Part shown: positions 45,001 to 51,000 of the stretch, piece after piece
Position numbering within the stretch: the stretch's first letter is position 1
How the letters are laid out: each line of letters starts with the position of its first letter
Assembly: GCA_965287045.1 (NCBI GenBank)
Contig: OZ336875.1
Span: 54,250,001 to 54,314,000 of the forward strand
Reading direction: 5' to 3'
Source of the DNA: Carcharhinus amblyrhynchos
Taxonomy: Eukaryota
DNA: 64,000 bases
Program-made: the position numbers

Positions 45001-48000
45001 AGTAATTACTGATGAGGGATGGTTGGTGTCCTTTGTCAAATGTAGGCCTCTACCCATAATAAGCAGGGACAGAGTAAGTGGTGGGAACTGTACTGGAACT
45101 AATTTTCCCCTTGAATTGAATCAGATGTTCAAAGTTGAGATATTCTAAACCAACATGCCATTATACCAGGCTAATTAGCCCTCTCATTGCCTCTGGCTGT
45201 GTTAGAACCAAAGCGCAAAAGATACACAGTGCACCATTAAACCCATTATTTTTTAACCTCTTTACTTAATTAATTTTTAATATGAGGCATAAATGGAGTT
45301 CATTATAAAGAACCATGGGGACTAATTTATATCCAATCCATAGCAATATCTCACATAATACAGAGGTGTCAAGTCAGGCCACTCTCGAGACTAAATATAA
45401 GTCCATTGATCTTTATAATGGGTGGGCTATTAATTTCCTTCCAATTTTATTTTATAATGTTAAGTCATTTCCTCATGACAACCTCCTGTGTATTAGGCAT
45501 TTGTGGGAACTAAGAGATTGCATAATGTGGGGAGGTAACTCTATGGGTGAAGAGCTTTACAGTTAAATCTTTAATTACAACATTACTCATTAACTGAAAT
45601 TCTGCTTATATCTTAGACCATTTTTGTTCGTGGTGTTTATTATTACAGTCCAGAACAGTGACAGTGACATAGGAACAGAAGGATTGGCTCTTGGAGTAAA
45701 GCGCATGAGCCCTTGAGTCTGCTCAAACATTTAATAAAGATGATCCTCAATCACAACTCAACTTCCCCGCCTGAACACCATATCCTTGATTCTTCCAAAA
45801 TCCAAAAGTCTAATGATCGTAACCTTGAACAACTGAGCATCCATAGCCCTCTGGCATAGTGAATTTCAAAGGTTCACAACTGTCTGAGTGTAGACATTTC
45901 TCCACATCTCATTTAAATGACTCCTAGTTTCAGATTCTCCAATCAGGTTGTGGTGATTGCTTCTTTAAGGCCAACACCAGCCATTTGACTCTTATTCTGC
46001 TCTGTTGACCTTAAAGGGACAATCATCACTGATTGGGCCTTTAAGGCTAACATAGGTGAAACAGCCTCTCAGCATTTATCTTGTCAAGATCTCTCAAAAT
46101 CATATGTTTCAATGAACTCATCCCTCATTTTCCTAAACTACAGAGTAAATGCCTATTTCTGCTCAGTCTCTCAGTGGAGAAATTGTATTTGTGAACCTCT
46201 GTTGTCCCTCTCTAAGCTGAGTATATCATTCTGCCAGTACTGCTACCAAAACTATGAAGGGGCTTCCCTTCACGCAATCCGAAGAGTCAGCAGGGACACA
46301 TCCTCACAGACTCCGAGTCTCAGTAACTATTTCACGCTTGAACGCACATCAGTTGGCTGCAGGAGGGATTTCCACCCTTCATTCAGGAGGAAGTCTTACC
46401 TTACTGAACTGCCAGCCAATCTGATTGGTCAACAGCTCTCCAGTCCCTATAGTGACAAAGAGCTAGTGTGGACTGAACAGAAAGTATATCAACATACCAG
46501 AGCCTAAGTTCCGTGACTGGAGGGCAAGGTAAGTTTAAGGGGTCCCAGGGTGCAGTGCAGGGAGAGCACAAAAGATCTGCAGGGCAATTGGAATGTTAGG
46601 AGAGAGGCTTGGACGGAGATGGAAGCGAAGTCCAACATCCACTGGACCTTAAGGAGGGGGGAAATGGGGGGATACTACAGTCAGAAGGCAGCTTCTGATG
46701 GAAGCACCCCCTCCCCACCACCTTTCTGCCTGAGACTTAAGCCCATTCCTGTTTGAGCTTTCCCTGCAATAGGCAAACCCTCCTGCTAGCTTAAAAATTG
46801 AGACTGGATGAGAAACTGTCTTGGCCTTTAAGATCCATACCTACTGGGGTATGGGTTCCACGCACAGGGACTCTCACTGGGGTACGGGTTCATAAAATCA
46901 TGCAACCACTACAGAGCAGAACGAGACCTTTCAGTCCATTGAATCTGCAACAATTCTCCAAGAGATAATGTTACACAGGCCCAAGCCCCCTGGCCCTATC
47001 CCCATAACCCTACACATTTACCATCCACCTAACCTATACATCTTTGGACTATGGGGGGAAGCCGGAGCACTGTGACTGGCATGTAATGAGAAAGCTGGGT
47101 AGAGTTTTGACCAGTTAGTTACAGGGTTGTCCCGGTTCAGTTCAAAAATCAGGGACACATCTATAGGCAACTTTCCCTTATTCACAGATATGGGCTCTCA
47201 GAATCCTGGAGTCAGGGATATGCACTTCACCTTGCTCTGCCTGTCTGTAGGTGTGTAAAAGATGCCAGGTGCACAGGGAATTTTTTTTTTCATTTTATAT
47301 TCAATTCAATCCAATCAAGTCCAATTCAAAGTCTCAGCAAGTGAGACATTACTGATCCAAGCTGACAGGCCAGCCTCTTCCTGTCCTGGGCTTGATCTAC
47401 ATGATCCAAGCTGATTGGAGCAGGCATTGCACCACCATCAAGGCTTGATCACATCTGCATCTTAGCCAAATGTGCAGGATGCACTTGGTCTTAACCAAAA
47501 GGCCAAGATGCAACAGGATTTTTTTTTGTTTATATCCAATTCAATCCAAAGTCTAATTCAAAGTCTCAGCAAGTGAGACATTCCCGATCCAAGCTGACAA
47601 GACAGGCTGGCCACTCCTGTCCTGGGCCTGATCTATATGCTCCAAGCTGATTGGAGCAGGCATTGCACCTCCTCCAAGACTTGATCTCATTTGCATCTTA
47701 GCCAAAACACCGAGATGCCACTTTAAAAAATTGTTTCAAATGAAGCCTCATTGTAACCTTATGACTTCAACCAAGTGTAGCACAGCAAAACTACACTTGA
47801 CCTTAACCAAAAGGTCAAGAAGTGACAGGGATTTTTTTTCAAAAATATACTTTATTCATATACTCTGAAACAAACCATTATGGAAACAACATTTCCAATC
47901 ATTACAACCAGTGCAAAACACAATCATATTTACAATTTCCTTAACTTGAACATTTTACAGTGCTTAGTTCCAAGACATTGCATGCATTACAGTTCAGCTT

Positions 48001-51000
48001 TTCAGCAAACTATATACATTCCTCACATATCACTGCTTGCTGTTTTTACAGAGTCGCACACAGATACATAGTCCAAGGGTTTGAAGCGACAGGGAATTTT
48101 TTTTGCATATACATCCAATTCAATCCAATCAAAGTCCAATTCAATCCAAAGTCTAATTCACAGTCTCAACAAGTGAGACATTCCCGATCCAAGCTGATGA
48201 GACAGGCCAGCCGCTTCCTATCTTGGGTTTGATTTACAAGATCCAAGCTGATTGGAGCAGGCACTGCGCCACCTCCAAGACTTGATCCCCATTTGCATCT
48301 TAGCCAAAAGGCCAAGATGCCACTATTAAAAATTGCTTCAAATGAAGCCTCAGTGTGACCTCATGACTTTTTTTTAAACTTTATTCCAATCCAATCAAGT
48401 CAAATTAAACCCAATTCAGAGTCCCAACAAGTTGGGACATTCCCGATCCAAGCTGACAAGACAGGGCTCTCACCTCCTGTCTTGGGCTTGATCTACATGA
48501 TCCAAGCTGACTGGAGTAGGTGTAGCTCCTCCTCCAGGGCTTGATCTTATTTGCATCTTAGCCAAATGGCCGAGATGCCACTTTAAAAAATTGCTTCAAA
48601 TGAAGCTGAAATGTAACCCAATGACTTCAACCAAGTGTAGCATGTCGATACTACACTTGATCTTAGCCAAAAGGCCGTGTGACCTCATGACTGCTGCAGT
48701 CAAAGGTTTCCCCAATGACTGTGGAATTAACACAATTCAGTGGTGAGCATGCTGCTGGTGGGGAAATGTACTGCCCATTTTTATGGCTCTGACTGACGCA
48801 ATTTTCAAAATTGCCCAGAAACCTCCCTGTTATTCAGCACTTTGCCAAACAAACTGCCTGAAAACAGCAATCATGCTGAGAAGCAAATTGCTTGTTAAGC
48901 CATCAATCCTGATCTAAAAATGACACTTCACTTTAAAAGTATGGCACAGTCAAATCATGCACTGGAAAGGAAAAGATCCAGAGAGCGATGCCTTGCATAT
49001 GTGGCAAGGAACAGTAAATGTCACAGCAAATAAAATCACTGCCGTGCCTTTCAACATGTGAAATGAGTATTTACAGTTTAAAACTGAAGCAATATTAATT
49101 GTGCCTGAAACCATGATAGTAGCACCACCAGACGAAAGCAGAGAACTTCAGGATTTAAAAAGTACACAAAAGAGAATAATTCTGCAATCACAGAACAGGA
49201 GCTGACAGTTATATTACCTGCAACAGTGAGTCAATTTTTAAACTTTTAACAGTTAATTTCATCCAATGTAGTTTCAACCTGAAACACGGTTTCTCATCTC
49301 GCTGTGATGTTAAAAGATATGTTCGAGAGGGCAGCAAAGGCTAGGCCAGAGCACACTGCAACATCAAAACAAAAACAGGGAAGAGAAACAAACGCAAGTG
49401 TCTTATCACATTTCCTACCATATATCCACCTGCTCAGATACACAGCTAATTGAAGCCGTCCGGCTCCCAGCATCTTGCTTTCTGCTACACAGTACACCTC
49501 GGGGAGGTTTTAGATAGCTGGTGCTTTCCAATATTAACCCACTATCCAAATAGAGTATTGTACAATTAATCTCAGGAATCTCTTGCTTCATAGAACAAAG
49601 AAAATTACAGCACAAGAACAGGCCCTTTGGCCCTCCAAGCCTGCATTGACCATGCTGCCCAACTTAACTAAAACCCCTACTCTTCCAGGGACCATATCCC
49701 GTTGTTCCCATCCTGTTCATGTACTTGTCAAGATGCCCCTTAAAAGTCACTAATGTATCCGCTGCCAGTACCTCCCCTGACAACGAGTTCCAGGCACCCA
49801 CTACTCTCTGTGTAAAAAATCTGCCTCGTACACCTTCTTTAAACCTTGTCCCTCACACCTTAAACCTCTGCCTCCTAATAACTGATTCTTCCACCCTGGG
49901 AAAAAGCTTCTGACTATCCACTCTGTCCATGCCTCTCATAATCTCATAGACTTCTATCAGGACTCCCCTCAATCACCGTTGCTCCAGTGAGAACAAACCA
50001 AGTTTCTCCAACCTCTCCTCATAGCTAATGCTCTCCATACCAGGCAACATCCTGATAATTTTTTTTTGTACCATCTTCAAAGCCTCCACATCCTTCTGGT
50101 CGTGTGGCAACCAGAATTGAACATTATATAATGTGGCCTAACTACGGTTCTATAATGCTGCAACATGACTTGCCCATTTTTAAACTCAATGCCCCGGCCA
50201 ATGAAAGCAAGCATGCCATATGCCTTCTTGACTACGTTCTCCACCTGCATTGCCACTTTCAGTGACCTGTGTACCTGTACACCCAGATCCCTTTGCCTAT
50301 CAATACTCAGAAGGGCTCTGCCATTTACTATATTTCTTATGTGTATTAGACCTTCCAAAATGCATTATCTCACATATTAAACTCCATCTACCATCTCTCT
50401 GCCCAGTCTCCATCTGATCTAAATCCTGCTGTATCCTCTGATGGCCCTCATTGCAATTCACAAATCCAGCAACCTTTGTGTCATCTGCAAACTTACTAAT
50501 CAACCCAGTTACATTTTCCTCCAAATCATTTATATATATTACAAACAGCAAAGGTCCCTGAGGAACACCACTTGTCATAGCCCTCCATTAGAAACGCAAC
50601 CTTCCACTGCTACCCTCTGTCTTCTTTGACCGAGTCAGTTTTGTATCCATCTTGCCAGCTCACCTCTGATCCCATGCGACTTCCTTCACCTTCTGCACCA
50701 GTCTGCCATGAGAGACCTTATCAAAGGCCTTACTGAAGTCCACGTAGGCAACATCCACTGCCCTAGCCTCATCAATCATCTTCGTCACTCCCTTGAAAAG
50801 TTCGATCAAGTTCATGAGACATGACCTCCCCTTCACAAAACCATTTTGCTTCTCACCAATACGTCCACTTATTTCCAAGTTTCATTGGGAAATTAAGTCT
50901 AAGGATATCACAGAACAACTTATAGGGGCAAAAGGAACAAATAGCTATGCCCAATGGCAGAAATTATAGGAATTATGTATTAAAACAAAAACACATTCAA

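What the first reader, a model, noticed from the sequence alone, without database searches (positions are those of the whole stretch)
47832..48082. Probable partner LINE inserted at the same target inside the U2-SINE array
Seen: an unrelated 250-bp AT-rich segment with AATAAA and poly(A), flanked by a 13-bp TSD (gaagYgacaggga) that is the head of unit B. Inference: the 3' UTR of the autonomous Tx1/L1-clade element that shares the target and mobilises the SINE, giving a handle to find the enzyme.
Basis: partly seen in the sequence, partly recalled or inferred. Interest (0 to 1): 0.7.

Follow-up and report, generated by a model that had tools for sequence, protein, structure and literature searches.

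The report
Retrocopy inserted at the SINE array's target
A 251-base copy of the tail end of a polyadenylated RNA was pasted into a row of U2-headed SINEs at exactly the spot where the SINEs themselves insert, which points to one site-selective retrotransposon enzyme, but nothing here shows that the piece belongs to that enzyme's own gene.

Summary
Window 47832-48082 (sense on the minus strand) is a 251-bp, 32% G+C segment. It ends in AATAAA, 11 nt and A8, and is bounded by 13-bp direct repeats (47819-47831 and 48083-48095) that agree at 12 of 13 positions; the mismatch is a CpG transition. It is unrelated to the four surrounding SINE copies.

All four poly(A) tails inside the array (three SINE tails and this one) abut TCC(C)TG. 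The segment is therefore a 5'-truncated retrocopy made by target-primed reverse transcription at the SINEs' own site, and it shows the 13-bp cleavage stagger unambiguously.

Whether this is the 3' UTR of the autonomous Tx1/L1-clade partner could not be checked:
- There is no second copy in the window and no ORF in the segment.
- It shares no tail with the SINE.
- All three reverse-transcriptase remnants in the window are CR1-like.
- No eukaryotic genome collection was available.

The site is also not Keno's. Keno inserts 37-38 nt into U2, whereas this site lies at the 5' edge of the U2-like head, and the flank resembles Keno's target no better than chance.

A cellular mRNA tail mobilised in trans is a serious rival. 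This is a useful sequence tag for the next search, not yet a finding about the enzyme.

The parts
47832..48082 (-). Inserted retrocopy, 251 nt, 5'-truncated 3' end of a polyadenylated transcript
   Evidence: Single copy in the window. No Rfam family apart from a chance-level snoRNA sR1 match (E 3.2, 12.6 bits against a gathering score of 45), and no tRNA.
47851..47856 (-). AATAAA polyadenylation signal, 11 nt before the A-tail
   Evidence: offset -17 from the start of the run.
47832..47839 (-). A8 tail of the retrocopy
47819..47831 (-). 3' copy of the 13-bp target-site duplication (TCCCTGTCACTTC), which is also the start of SINE unit 3
48083..48095 (-). 5' copy of the 13-bp target-site duplication (TCCCTGTCGCTTC)
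48097..48352 (-). SINE unit 2, 5'-truncated at about consensus column 67. Its A8 tail is 48104-48097, followed by T at 48096. Its first 15 nt now lie at 48691-48677, split off by unit A.
48368..48676 (-). SINE unit A, which starts at U2-like GGCC and ends in A8 at 48375-48368. It is inserted off-target inside unit 2 with a perfect 15-bp duplication (48691-48677 and 48367-48353).
47519..47818 (-). SINE unit 3, full length; with the 13-mer it runs from 47831. Its A9 tail is 47527-47519.
   Evidence: (U2, E 1.5e-05).
47281..47518 (-). SINE unit 4. Its head is TCCTGTTGCATC..., it carries an internal deletion, and its A10 tail is 47290-47281.
47268..47280 (-). Flank following the last SINE tail, TTCCCTGTGCACC: the presumed original target of the array

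Best explanation
The segment is a cDNA copy of the last roughly 243 nt plus A-tail of a polyadenylated, presumably RNA polymerase II, transcript. It was integrated by target-primed reverse transcription in the same orientation as the SINEs (sense on the minus strand).

Proposed mechanism:
1. The window's + strand was nicked right after the base now at 47831, at the junction between the preceding SINE's tail and TCCCTG.
2. That 3' OH primed cDNA synthesis on the poly(A) tail.
3. Reverse transcription stopped, or the template ended, after about 243 nt.
4. The sense strand was cut 13 nt further in, after ...CTTC (between 47819 and 47818).
5. Fill-in produced the 13-bp duplication.

Three SINE tails in the array end at the same TCC(C)TG boundary, so the same site-selective endonuclease/reverse transcriptase most likely made all of these insertions.

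Shown: the anatomy (signal, tail, duplication, non-homology to the SINE) and the shared junction.

Inferred: the TPRT steps, that one enzyme made all the insertions, and that it is site-specific.

Not settled: which RNA was copied. My estimates are autonomous LINE 3' end about 0.4, cellular mRNA or lncRNA 3' end about 0.3, another non-autonomous poly(A) retroposon about 0.15.
For: - AATAAA, 11 nt, then A8, directly followed by the 13-mer.
- The two 13-mers agree at 12 of 13 positions, the difference is a CpG transition, and no other window match has 1 mismatch or fewer.
- Homology between the two flanks stops at exactly 13 bp, and the segment has no similarity to the SINE.
- 4 of 4 poly(A) tails inside the array are followed by (T)TCC(C)TG: 48104-48097, 47839-47832, 47527-47519 and 47290-47281.
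- Neither unambiguous duplication in the locus (13 bp here, 15 bp for unit A) starts A-rich. The primer end here is ...CAGGGA rather than a T-run, so the nick does not look like an L1-type one (the L1 TT|AAAA consensus is recalled, not from any call).
- Precedent: tandem SINEU-3 copies sandwich a target duplication, and shared target was used to assign Tx1-Mar as the mobiliser (PMC4494074, passages, section 16).
Against: - This is one event at one locus. The four junctions are not independent targets, because each new insertion regenerates the site.
- The fifth insertion (unit A) sits at an unrelated 15-mer, so specificity is not strict.
- The SINE-flanking 13-mers are less alike than the insert's. 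By my count on the sequences, that is about 9-10 of 13 columns for units 3 and 4. The SINE heads may therefore come partly from the SINE RNA, which makes 'same stagger' an extrapolation for the SINEs.
- The preceding tail is followed by TT (48096-48095) while the insert's tail is followed by a single T. An A-tail-directed nick plus a 1-nt change cannot be excluded.
- No 5' duplication was found for unit 2 or for the array as a whole.
Confidence: 0.6

Rival explanations
1. One reading: the segment is the 5'-truncated 3' UTR of the autonomous Tx1/L1-clade LINE that mobilises the SINE and shares its target.
For: It has the same junction as the SINE tails and a clean duplication. 5'-truncated copies of the LINE itself are usually the commonest product of such enzymes because of cis preference (described for L1 in PMC3747384, passage). 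AATAAA plus poly(A) fits L1/Tx1-type ends. SINEU in crocodilians is assigned to Tx1-Mar by shared target (PMC4494074).
Against: There is no ORF2 remnant. Sense frames close after 11-19 codons (my reading of the sense strand), and upstream of the segment is the duplication and then another SINE. There is no second copy in 64 kb. It shares no 3' tail with the SINE beyond a 9-mer around AATAAA, which 68 of 500 shuffles match. The 3 RT ORFs in the window are CR1-like, not Tx1/L1. The target is not the Keno site.
Confidence: 0.4
2. It is a processed-pseudogene fragment: the 3' UTR end of a cellular mRNA or lncRNA copied in trans by the same (relaxed, poly(A)-recognising) LINE machinery.
For: It has a canonical signal at the canonical distance from the tail, AT-rich UTR-like composition at 32% G+C, a single copy in the window, and no relation to the SINE. 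A machinery that mobilises a SINE with which it shares only poly(A) is the kind that also copies mRNAs (PMC3747384, abstract and passages).
Against: In trans mRNA copies are much rarer than LINE or SINE copies in the L1 system (established knowledge, recalled). For a site-specific LINE no such copies are documented in the passages I read.
Confidence: 0.3
3. The shared target is a coincidence. An ordinary, non-specific L1-like element nicked in or beside the A-tail of the preceding SINE, as retroposons often do, so the segment says nothing about the SINE's partner.
For: The insertion lies immediately after a pre-existing A8 tail (48104-48097). A-tails are known hot spots for L1-type insertion (recalled). 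The total duplication could be longer than 13 bp if part of the insert's A8 is duplicated tail.
Against: The primer strand ends in ...CAGGGA and the T-run lies on the wrong side of the nick. The extra T at 48096 is not duplicated. If the tail were part of the duplication, the insert's own poly(A) would have to be about zero. The oldest SINE tail abuts the same motif (TTCCCTG at 47280) although its pre-insertion upstream sequence is unknown. Unit A's 15-bp duplication is also not A-rich.
Confidence: 0.15
4. It is not an insertion at all: it is original spacer DNA between two independently inserted SINEs, or a product of tandem duplication or template jumping.
For: Head-to-tail arrays can arise by unequal exchange, and reverse transcriptases can jump between templates (mentioned in PMC4494074 section 17).
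Against: This would need a 13-nt SINE-head fragment by itself, unique DNA ending by chance in AATAAA-N11-A8 exactly at the next head, and 12 of 13 identity. Template jumping does not explain an isolated 13-mer.
Confidence: 0.03

Closest known systems
SINEU with Tx1-Mar in crocodilians (Kojima 2015, PMC4494074; I read the abstract, passages, and sections 16 and 17)
   Same: The SINEs have U2-derived heads, and SINEU-3 is an internally deleted U2. They are poly(A)-type retroposons. Tandem copies sandwich a target duplication (16 bp there, 13 bp here). The partner is assigned by shared target rather than shared tail.
   Different: There the target is a Mariner transposon and the partner LINE was actually found with its ORFs. 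Here the target is the 5' edge of the SINE's own U2-like head, and no LINE is in hand. The paper reports no SINEU outside crocodilians. This window's CR1-like RT is closest, among named proteins, to sharks and rays at 61-66% identity. Sequence relationship to the SINEU families could not be tested.
Keno, the U2-gene-specific Tx1-clade LINE (Kojima and Fujiwara 2004, not seen; known to me through PMC4494074, PMC4640811 and PMC6136364)
   Same: It has a link to U2 sequence, site-specific insertion, and an APE-type enzyme is expected.
   Different: Keno inserts 37-38 nt into U2 with 3' flank TCTGTTCTTATCAG.... Here the 3' flank is TCCCTG plus U2 positions about 2-8. No genuine U2 gene is present, since there are no Rfam hits at gathering score. 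Similarity of the flanks is at chance level.
Utopia, the U2-targeting restriction-like-endonuclease LINE (PMC4640811; I read passages and section 6)
   Same: It targets U2, inserts in tandem within arrays, and gives duplications of up to 20 bp in reptiles.
   Different: It uses the same internal U2 site as Keno, not the 5' edge. Nothing here bears on the endonuclease type.
L1-type 5'-truncated copies and processed pseudogenes (reviewed in PMC3747384; passages read)
   Same: AATAAA, a poly(A) tail, 5' truncation and a 13-bp duplication. Trans-mobilisation of RNAs that share only poly(A).
   Different: The nick is not at a T-run/A-rich site, and the same non-A-rich motif was used repeatedly.

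Membership tests
5'-truncated copy of an autonomous LINE (3' UTR) | Longer copies continue 5' into an APE-RT ORF2 | not testable with these tools
   This copy ends at the duplication, with a SINE upstream. No eukaryotic genome collection was available.
5'-truncated copy of an autonomous LINE (3' UTR) | Multicopy family | tested here: inconclusive
   One copy in 64 kb. The best non-self BLAST E-value is 0.29, and nhmmer finds only the segment itself. A low-copy family would look the same.
5'-truncated copy of an autonomous LINE (3' UTR) | Poly(A) or other LINE-type 3' end, with a target-site duplication | tested here: met
   AATAAA-N11-A8 and a 13-bp duplication agreeing at 12 of 13 positions.
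Partner LINE of this SINE | Same insertion site as the SINE | tested here: met
   The insert's tail and 3 of 3 in-array SINE tails abut TCC(C)TG. This is one locus only, and unit A is off-target.
Partner LINE of this SINE | Shared 3' tail with the SINE (stringent-type pairs) | tested here: not met
   Tail alignments are reached by 51-162 of 500 shuffles. This feature is not required for relaxed, poly(A)-type pairs.
Keno (Tx1 clade, U2-specific) | Insertion 37-38 nt into a U2 gene, with 3' flank TCTGTTCTTATCAG... | tested here: not met
   The 3' flank is the 5' edge of the U2-like head. For the five junction flanks inside the array, its similarity to the Keno flank is matched by 6-33% of random 16-mers. 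Site taken.
Keno (Tx1 clade, U2-specific) | Tx1-clade APE-RT protein | not testable with these tools
   There is no ORF in the segment. The only RT remnants in the window are CR1-like.
Processed pseudogene fragment | Parent gene whose 3' UTR matches and carries introns upstream | not testable with these tools
   Needs the source genome or transcriptome.
L1-type insertion into an A-tail | Nick at a T-run (TT|AAAA on the sense strand) and a duplication that starts A-rich | tested here: not met
   The duplication starts TCCCTG, the primer end is ...CAGGGA, and the T at 48096 is not duplicated. The consensus itself is recalled.
SINEU-like SINE (the host array) | Head derived from U1 or U2 snRNA | tested here: met
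   Rfam U2 hits on units 3 and A (E 1.5e-05 and 0.0002), with positions 1-37/40 aligned at high posterior probability. Both are below the gathering score.

The most novel reading that the evidence does not exclude
The segment is the 3' end of an undescribed site-specific LINE lineage, probably of Tx1 type. Its cognate site would be the 5' boundary of U2-type heads (poly(A)|TCCCTG TCGCTTC, 13-bp stagger), a site distinct from the internal U2 site shared by Keno and Utopia. By regenerating its own target at every insertion, it would build head-to-tail arrays of a U2-headed SINE in a cartilaginous fish, outside the only group (crocodilians) in which snRNA-headed SINEs have been reported.
Probability: 0.25. 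Interest if true: 0.6.

Novelty: new member of a known kind. Interest (0 to 1): 0.33.

Why it matters
The segment carries no U2 head of its own, so its 13-bp duplication is the one unambiguous readout of where the enzyme cuts both strands at this site. The SINE copies cannot give that, because their heads resemble the target.

It is also a unique 243-nt tag with which the source genome can be searched. If longer copies run into an APE-RT ORF and are also followed by TCC(C)TG, the autonomous partner of a U2-headed SINE would be identified, along with a third, independent way of targeting U2-type sequence. If the tag leads to a single gene's 3' UTR, it would show instead that this site-selective machinery copies cellular mRNAs in trans.

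Tried and rejected
- **More copies of the segment in the window.** blastn with word sizes 9 and 7, and nhmmer, found only the segment itself; the best other hit has E 0.29.
- **Similarity of the segment to the SINE body or tail.** None above shuffles.
- **RNA families or tRNA in the segment.** Nothing meaningful. The best Rfam hit is snoRNA sR1 at E 3.2, and ARAGORN found 0 genes. The RNA fold z-score is -1.93, with 6 of 200 shuffles folding as well, which is unremarkable.
- **An 81-codon open frame on the + strand (47826-48071), antisense to the tail.** No Pfam family at E up to 1. The chance of such an open frame from composition is about 0.005 per frame. I treat it as chance.
- **A Tx1/L1 enzyme in the window.** 32 of the 38 listed ORFs of 110 aa or more went to Pfam. 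I left 6 out: 2518-2859 (+), 22387-22725 (+), 22970-23308 (-), 34121-34459 (+), 36042-36380 (-) and 62038-62412 (-). Three of these overlap an ORF that was sent; the other three were simply not sent. Three ORFs carry RVT_1. All three are CR1-like: 41-55% identity to a stork CR1-like protein, with only weak PDB hits to R2 and L1 ORF2p at E 3e-05 to 8e-04.
- **Likeness of the target to Keno's 3' flank.** Not above chance.
- **A duplication for the whole array or for unit 2.** None near 48692.
- **Another AAAAAATCCCTG at 31150-31161.** No retroposon features around it.
- **Other A-runs with signals (26908, 63535).** Nothing related.
- **Flanks of the array.** 47071-47280 and 48692-49300 are unique in the window. 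46896-47070 is a dispersed repeat.
- **Literature.** Searches found no report of a U2-headed SINE or a U2-5'-edge-specific LINE in cartilaginous fishes in this library. One search was swamped by 'SINEUP' papers.
- **Not run.** The genome-contig scan, because that collection holds only bacterial and archaeal genomes. Supplements were closed, so the target alignments in the supplementary figures of PMC4494074 (S3-S6) and PMC4640811 (S1, S4) were not seen; they may bear on the target comparison. No spliced gene model was needed or built. The window has no N and nothing in it looked human.

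
Full report
**What is there.** On the minus strand, window 48691-47281 is a head-to-tail row of four copies of one SINE. Pairwise identity is 79-87% (alignment A1). The 251-bp segment under review interrupts this row.

The SINE heads are U2-like. Rfam's U2 model matches units 3 and A over model positions 1-37/40 with high posterior probability, and more loosely further on (E 1.5e-05 and 0.0002). Both hits are below the gathering score, and no genuine U2 gene is found at gathering score anywhere in the window.

In sense order the parts are as follows:
- The first 15 nt of unit 2 (48691-48677).
- Unit A (48676-48368), bounded by a perfect 15-bp duplication (48691-48677 and 48367-48353).
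- The rest of unit 2 (48352-48097), whose A8 tail is followed by T at 48096.
- The 13-mer TCCCTGTCGCTTC (48095-48083).
- The segment (48082-47832).
- The 13-mer TCCCTGTCACTTC (47831-47819), which continues as the head of the full-length unit 3 (to 47519).
- Unit 4 (47518-47281).
- The flank TTCCCTGTGCACC (47280-47268).

The segment ends in AATAAA (47856-47851), 11 nt and A8 (47839-47832). It has 32.3% G+C, against 0.43-0.45 for the two enclosing 2-kb bins.

It has no similarity to the SINE units: 66-250 of 300 shuffles reach the observed local scores. For the last 70 nt, 51-162 of 500 shuffles do, and the best shared word is a 9-mer around AATAAA.

The two 13-mers differ at one position, CG versus CA, the commonest vertebrate substitution. 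They are the only window matches to that 13-mer with 1 mismatch or fewer.

A scan of all 31 A/T runs of 7 or more found an abutting repeated 12-mer within 500 nt at only two of them, unit A and this segment. One further match 4.1 kb away looks like chance. My decoy control in that call was confounded by the repeated units (0-14 hits). I therefore measured the background directly. Outside the array, 0.49% of positions have a 13-mer copy with 1 mismatch or fewer 73-512 nt away, many of them inside true tandem repeats. Four of 31 runs carry A[AT]TAAA within 35 nt upstream.

The repeat alone would be only modestly surprising. It is convincing because the signal sits at the right distance, the tail abuts the repeat exactly, and flank homology ends at exactly 13 bp.

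**What it is.** The anatomy is that of a 5'-truncated retrocopy of a polyadenylated transcript, integrated by target-primed reverse transcription.

Reconstructing the empty site, the + strand read ...GAAG(C/T)GACAGGGA | ATTTTTTTT.... The nick that primed cDNA lies after ...CAGGGA. The primer end therefore carries no T-run, and the T-run (the previous SINE's tail) lies on the far side of the nick. The sense strand was cut 13 nt further in.

This is not the geometry of an L1-type nick (that consensus is recalled, not from a call). Unit A's 15-bp duplication is not A-rich either. All four poly(A) tails inside the array are followed by (T)TCC(C)TG. I therefore take repeated use of one motif by a site-selective enzyme as the best reading.

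Kojima describes the same picture for SINEU-3: tandem copies sandwich a target duplication, and the mobiliser is assigned by shared target (PMC4494074, passages, section 16).

**Caveats on 'same target'.** Each insertion regenerates the site, so the four junctions are one lineage of a site rather than four independent targets. Unit A shows that off-target insertion occurs.

The 13-mers that flank units 3 and 4 agree with each other at only about 9-10 of 13 columns (my count). They also grow more U2-like toward the younger copies. This suggests that part of each SINE head comes from the SINE RNA, or from homology-guided joining, rather than from a plain duplication.

The segment has no U2 head, so it is the only element that shows the stagger cleanly.

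The preceding tail is followed by TT and the segment's tail by T. A nick inside the old A-tail plus a 1-nt change is therefore not excluded. I give that rival 0.15.

**Is it the partner LINE's 3' UTR?** This is where the evidence stops.
- The copy is bounded 5' by the duplication and then by another SINE, so 'upstream ORF2' cannot exist at this locus.
- The three sense frames close after 11-19 codons (my reading of the sense strand).
- No other copy exists in the window.
- Pfam scanning covered 32 of the 38 ORFs of 110 aa or more. The 6 ORFs left out are listed under Tried and rejected. It found three reverse-transcriptase remnants (1935-3395 +, 3309-4289 -, 57332-57856 +). All three are CR1-like, a clade whose elements do not end in poly(A) (recalled). 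None has sequence similar to the segment.
- The SINE's last 100 nt or so, the part most likely borrowed from a LINE, does not resemble the segment. This counts against a stringent-type partnership and leaves only a relaxed, poly(A)-recognising one.
- A relaxed enzyme is exactly the kind that also copies cellular mRNAs (PMC3747384, passages).

My estimates for the source RNA are LINE 3' end about 0.4, mRNA or lncRNA 3' end about 0.3, and another non-autonomous family about 0.15.

**Not Keno's site.** Keno and Utopia leave U2 sequence starting at about nt 38-39 as their 3' flank, printed as TCTGTTCTTATCAGTTTAAT (PMC4640811 section 6; PMC6136364 passage).

Here the 3' flank is TCCCTG followed by U2 model positions about 2-8. 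Anchored alignment of the five junction flanks inside the array to the Keno flank scores no better than 6-33% of random window 16-mers. The off-target unit A flank scores lower still (60%).

If a Tx1-type enzyme is responsible, it is one with a different site. Placing it 'with Keno' is a guess.

One coincidence is worth recording. The U2-derived head of the SINE ends at model position 37-40, which is where Keno and Utopia insert. It is followed by a snap-back hairpin. I could not test whether this reflects birth of the SINE in a U2 gene interrupted at that site.

**Host.** Among named database proteins, the CR1-like RT is closest to sharks and rays: Chiloscyllium 66%, Hypanus 64%, Mobula 62% and Pristis 61% identity. 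Birds and turtles are at about 50-54%. The window is therefore probably from a cartilaginous fish. It is not human-like and has no N.

Kojima reported no SINEU outside crocodilians, and a 2017 review repeats that placement (PMC5381603, one passage). My five literature searches found no report of a U2-headed SINE in cartilaginous fishes in this library. Repbase itself could not be consulted. That novelty, if real, belongs to the array rather than to the segment reviewed here.

**Verdict.** The inference 'inserted at the SINE's own target by the same machinery' is reasonable, at about 0.6. The inference 'this is the Tx1/L1 partner's 3' UTR' is open, at about 0.4. 'Keno-like target' is contradicted.

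The segment's value is practical. It is a clean readout of the 13-bp stagger and a unique tag for a genome search that these tools could not perform.

Noticed in passing
window 48353-48691 (minus strand): SINE unit A is flanked by a perfect 15-bp duplication (48691-48677 and 48367-48353). It sits inside another SINE copy at a site unrelated to TCCCTG. It starts at the U2-like GGCC, about 10 nt short of the other heads. This shows that the machinery also inserts off-target.
   Followed up: partly
window 47760-47831 and 48632-48676 (minus strand): The U2-derived head of the SINE ends at Rfam U2 model position 37-40, the position at which Keno and Utopia elements insert into U2. It is followed by a snap-back hairpin: 9-nt arms 47772-47780 / 47791-47799, and 12-nt arms 48632-48643 / 48648-48659. 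The SINE may have been born from a U2 gene interrupted at that site.
   Followed up: partly
window 47637-47826 and 48495-48688 (minus strand): The Rfam U2 alignment spans the whole model (1-192) with internal deletions. It includes a second U2-5'-like block and a stem-loop resembling the U2 3' end. The SINE therefore looks like an internally deleted, partly duplicated U2, as described for SINEU-3.
   Followed up: partly
window 47482-47518 (minus strand): Unit 4 lacks about 76 alignment columns between the first U2-like head and the second U2-like block (alignment A1). This could be a deletion by exchange between the two similar blocks, or a shorter subfamily.
   Followed up: no
window 1935-3395 (+), 3309-4289 (-), 57332-57856 (+): Three CR1-like reverse-transcriptase remnants, two of them nested in opposite orientation. 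Among named proteins the first is most similar to sharks and rays (61-66% identity).
   Followed up: yes
window 46896-47070: A dispersed repeat just beyond the array, with partial copies at 15285-15460, 26428-26483, 62742-62789, 28472-28520 and 28103-28150.
   Followed up: no
window 40106-40404: A C-rich tandem repeat of period 37 (8.1 copies, 80% matches) inside the G+C-rich stretch at 38-42 kb.
   Followed up: no
window 23309-23752 (minus strand): An open frame in a G+C-rich stretch contains the same roughly 25-residue peptide twice (a direct DNA repeat) and gives a sub-threshold CNRIP1 Pfam hit (E 0.0032). It is probably a repeat rather than an exon.
   Followed up: partly
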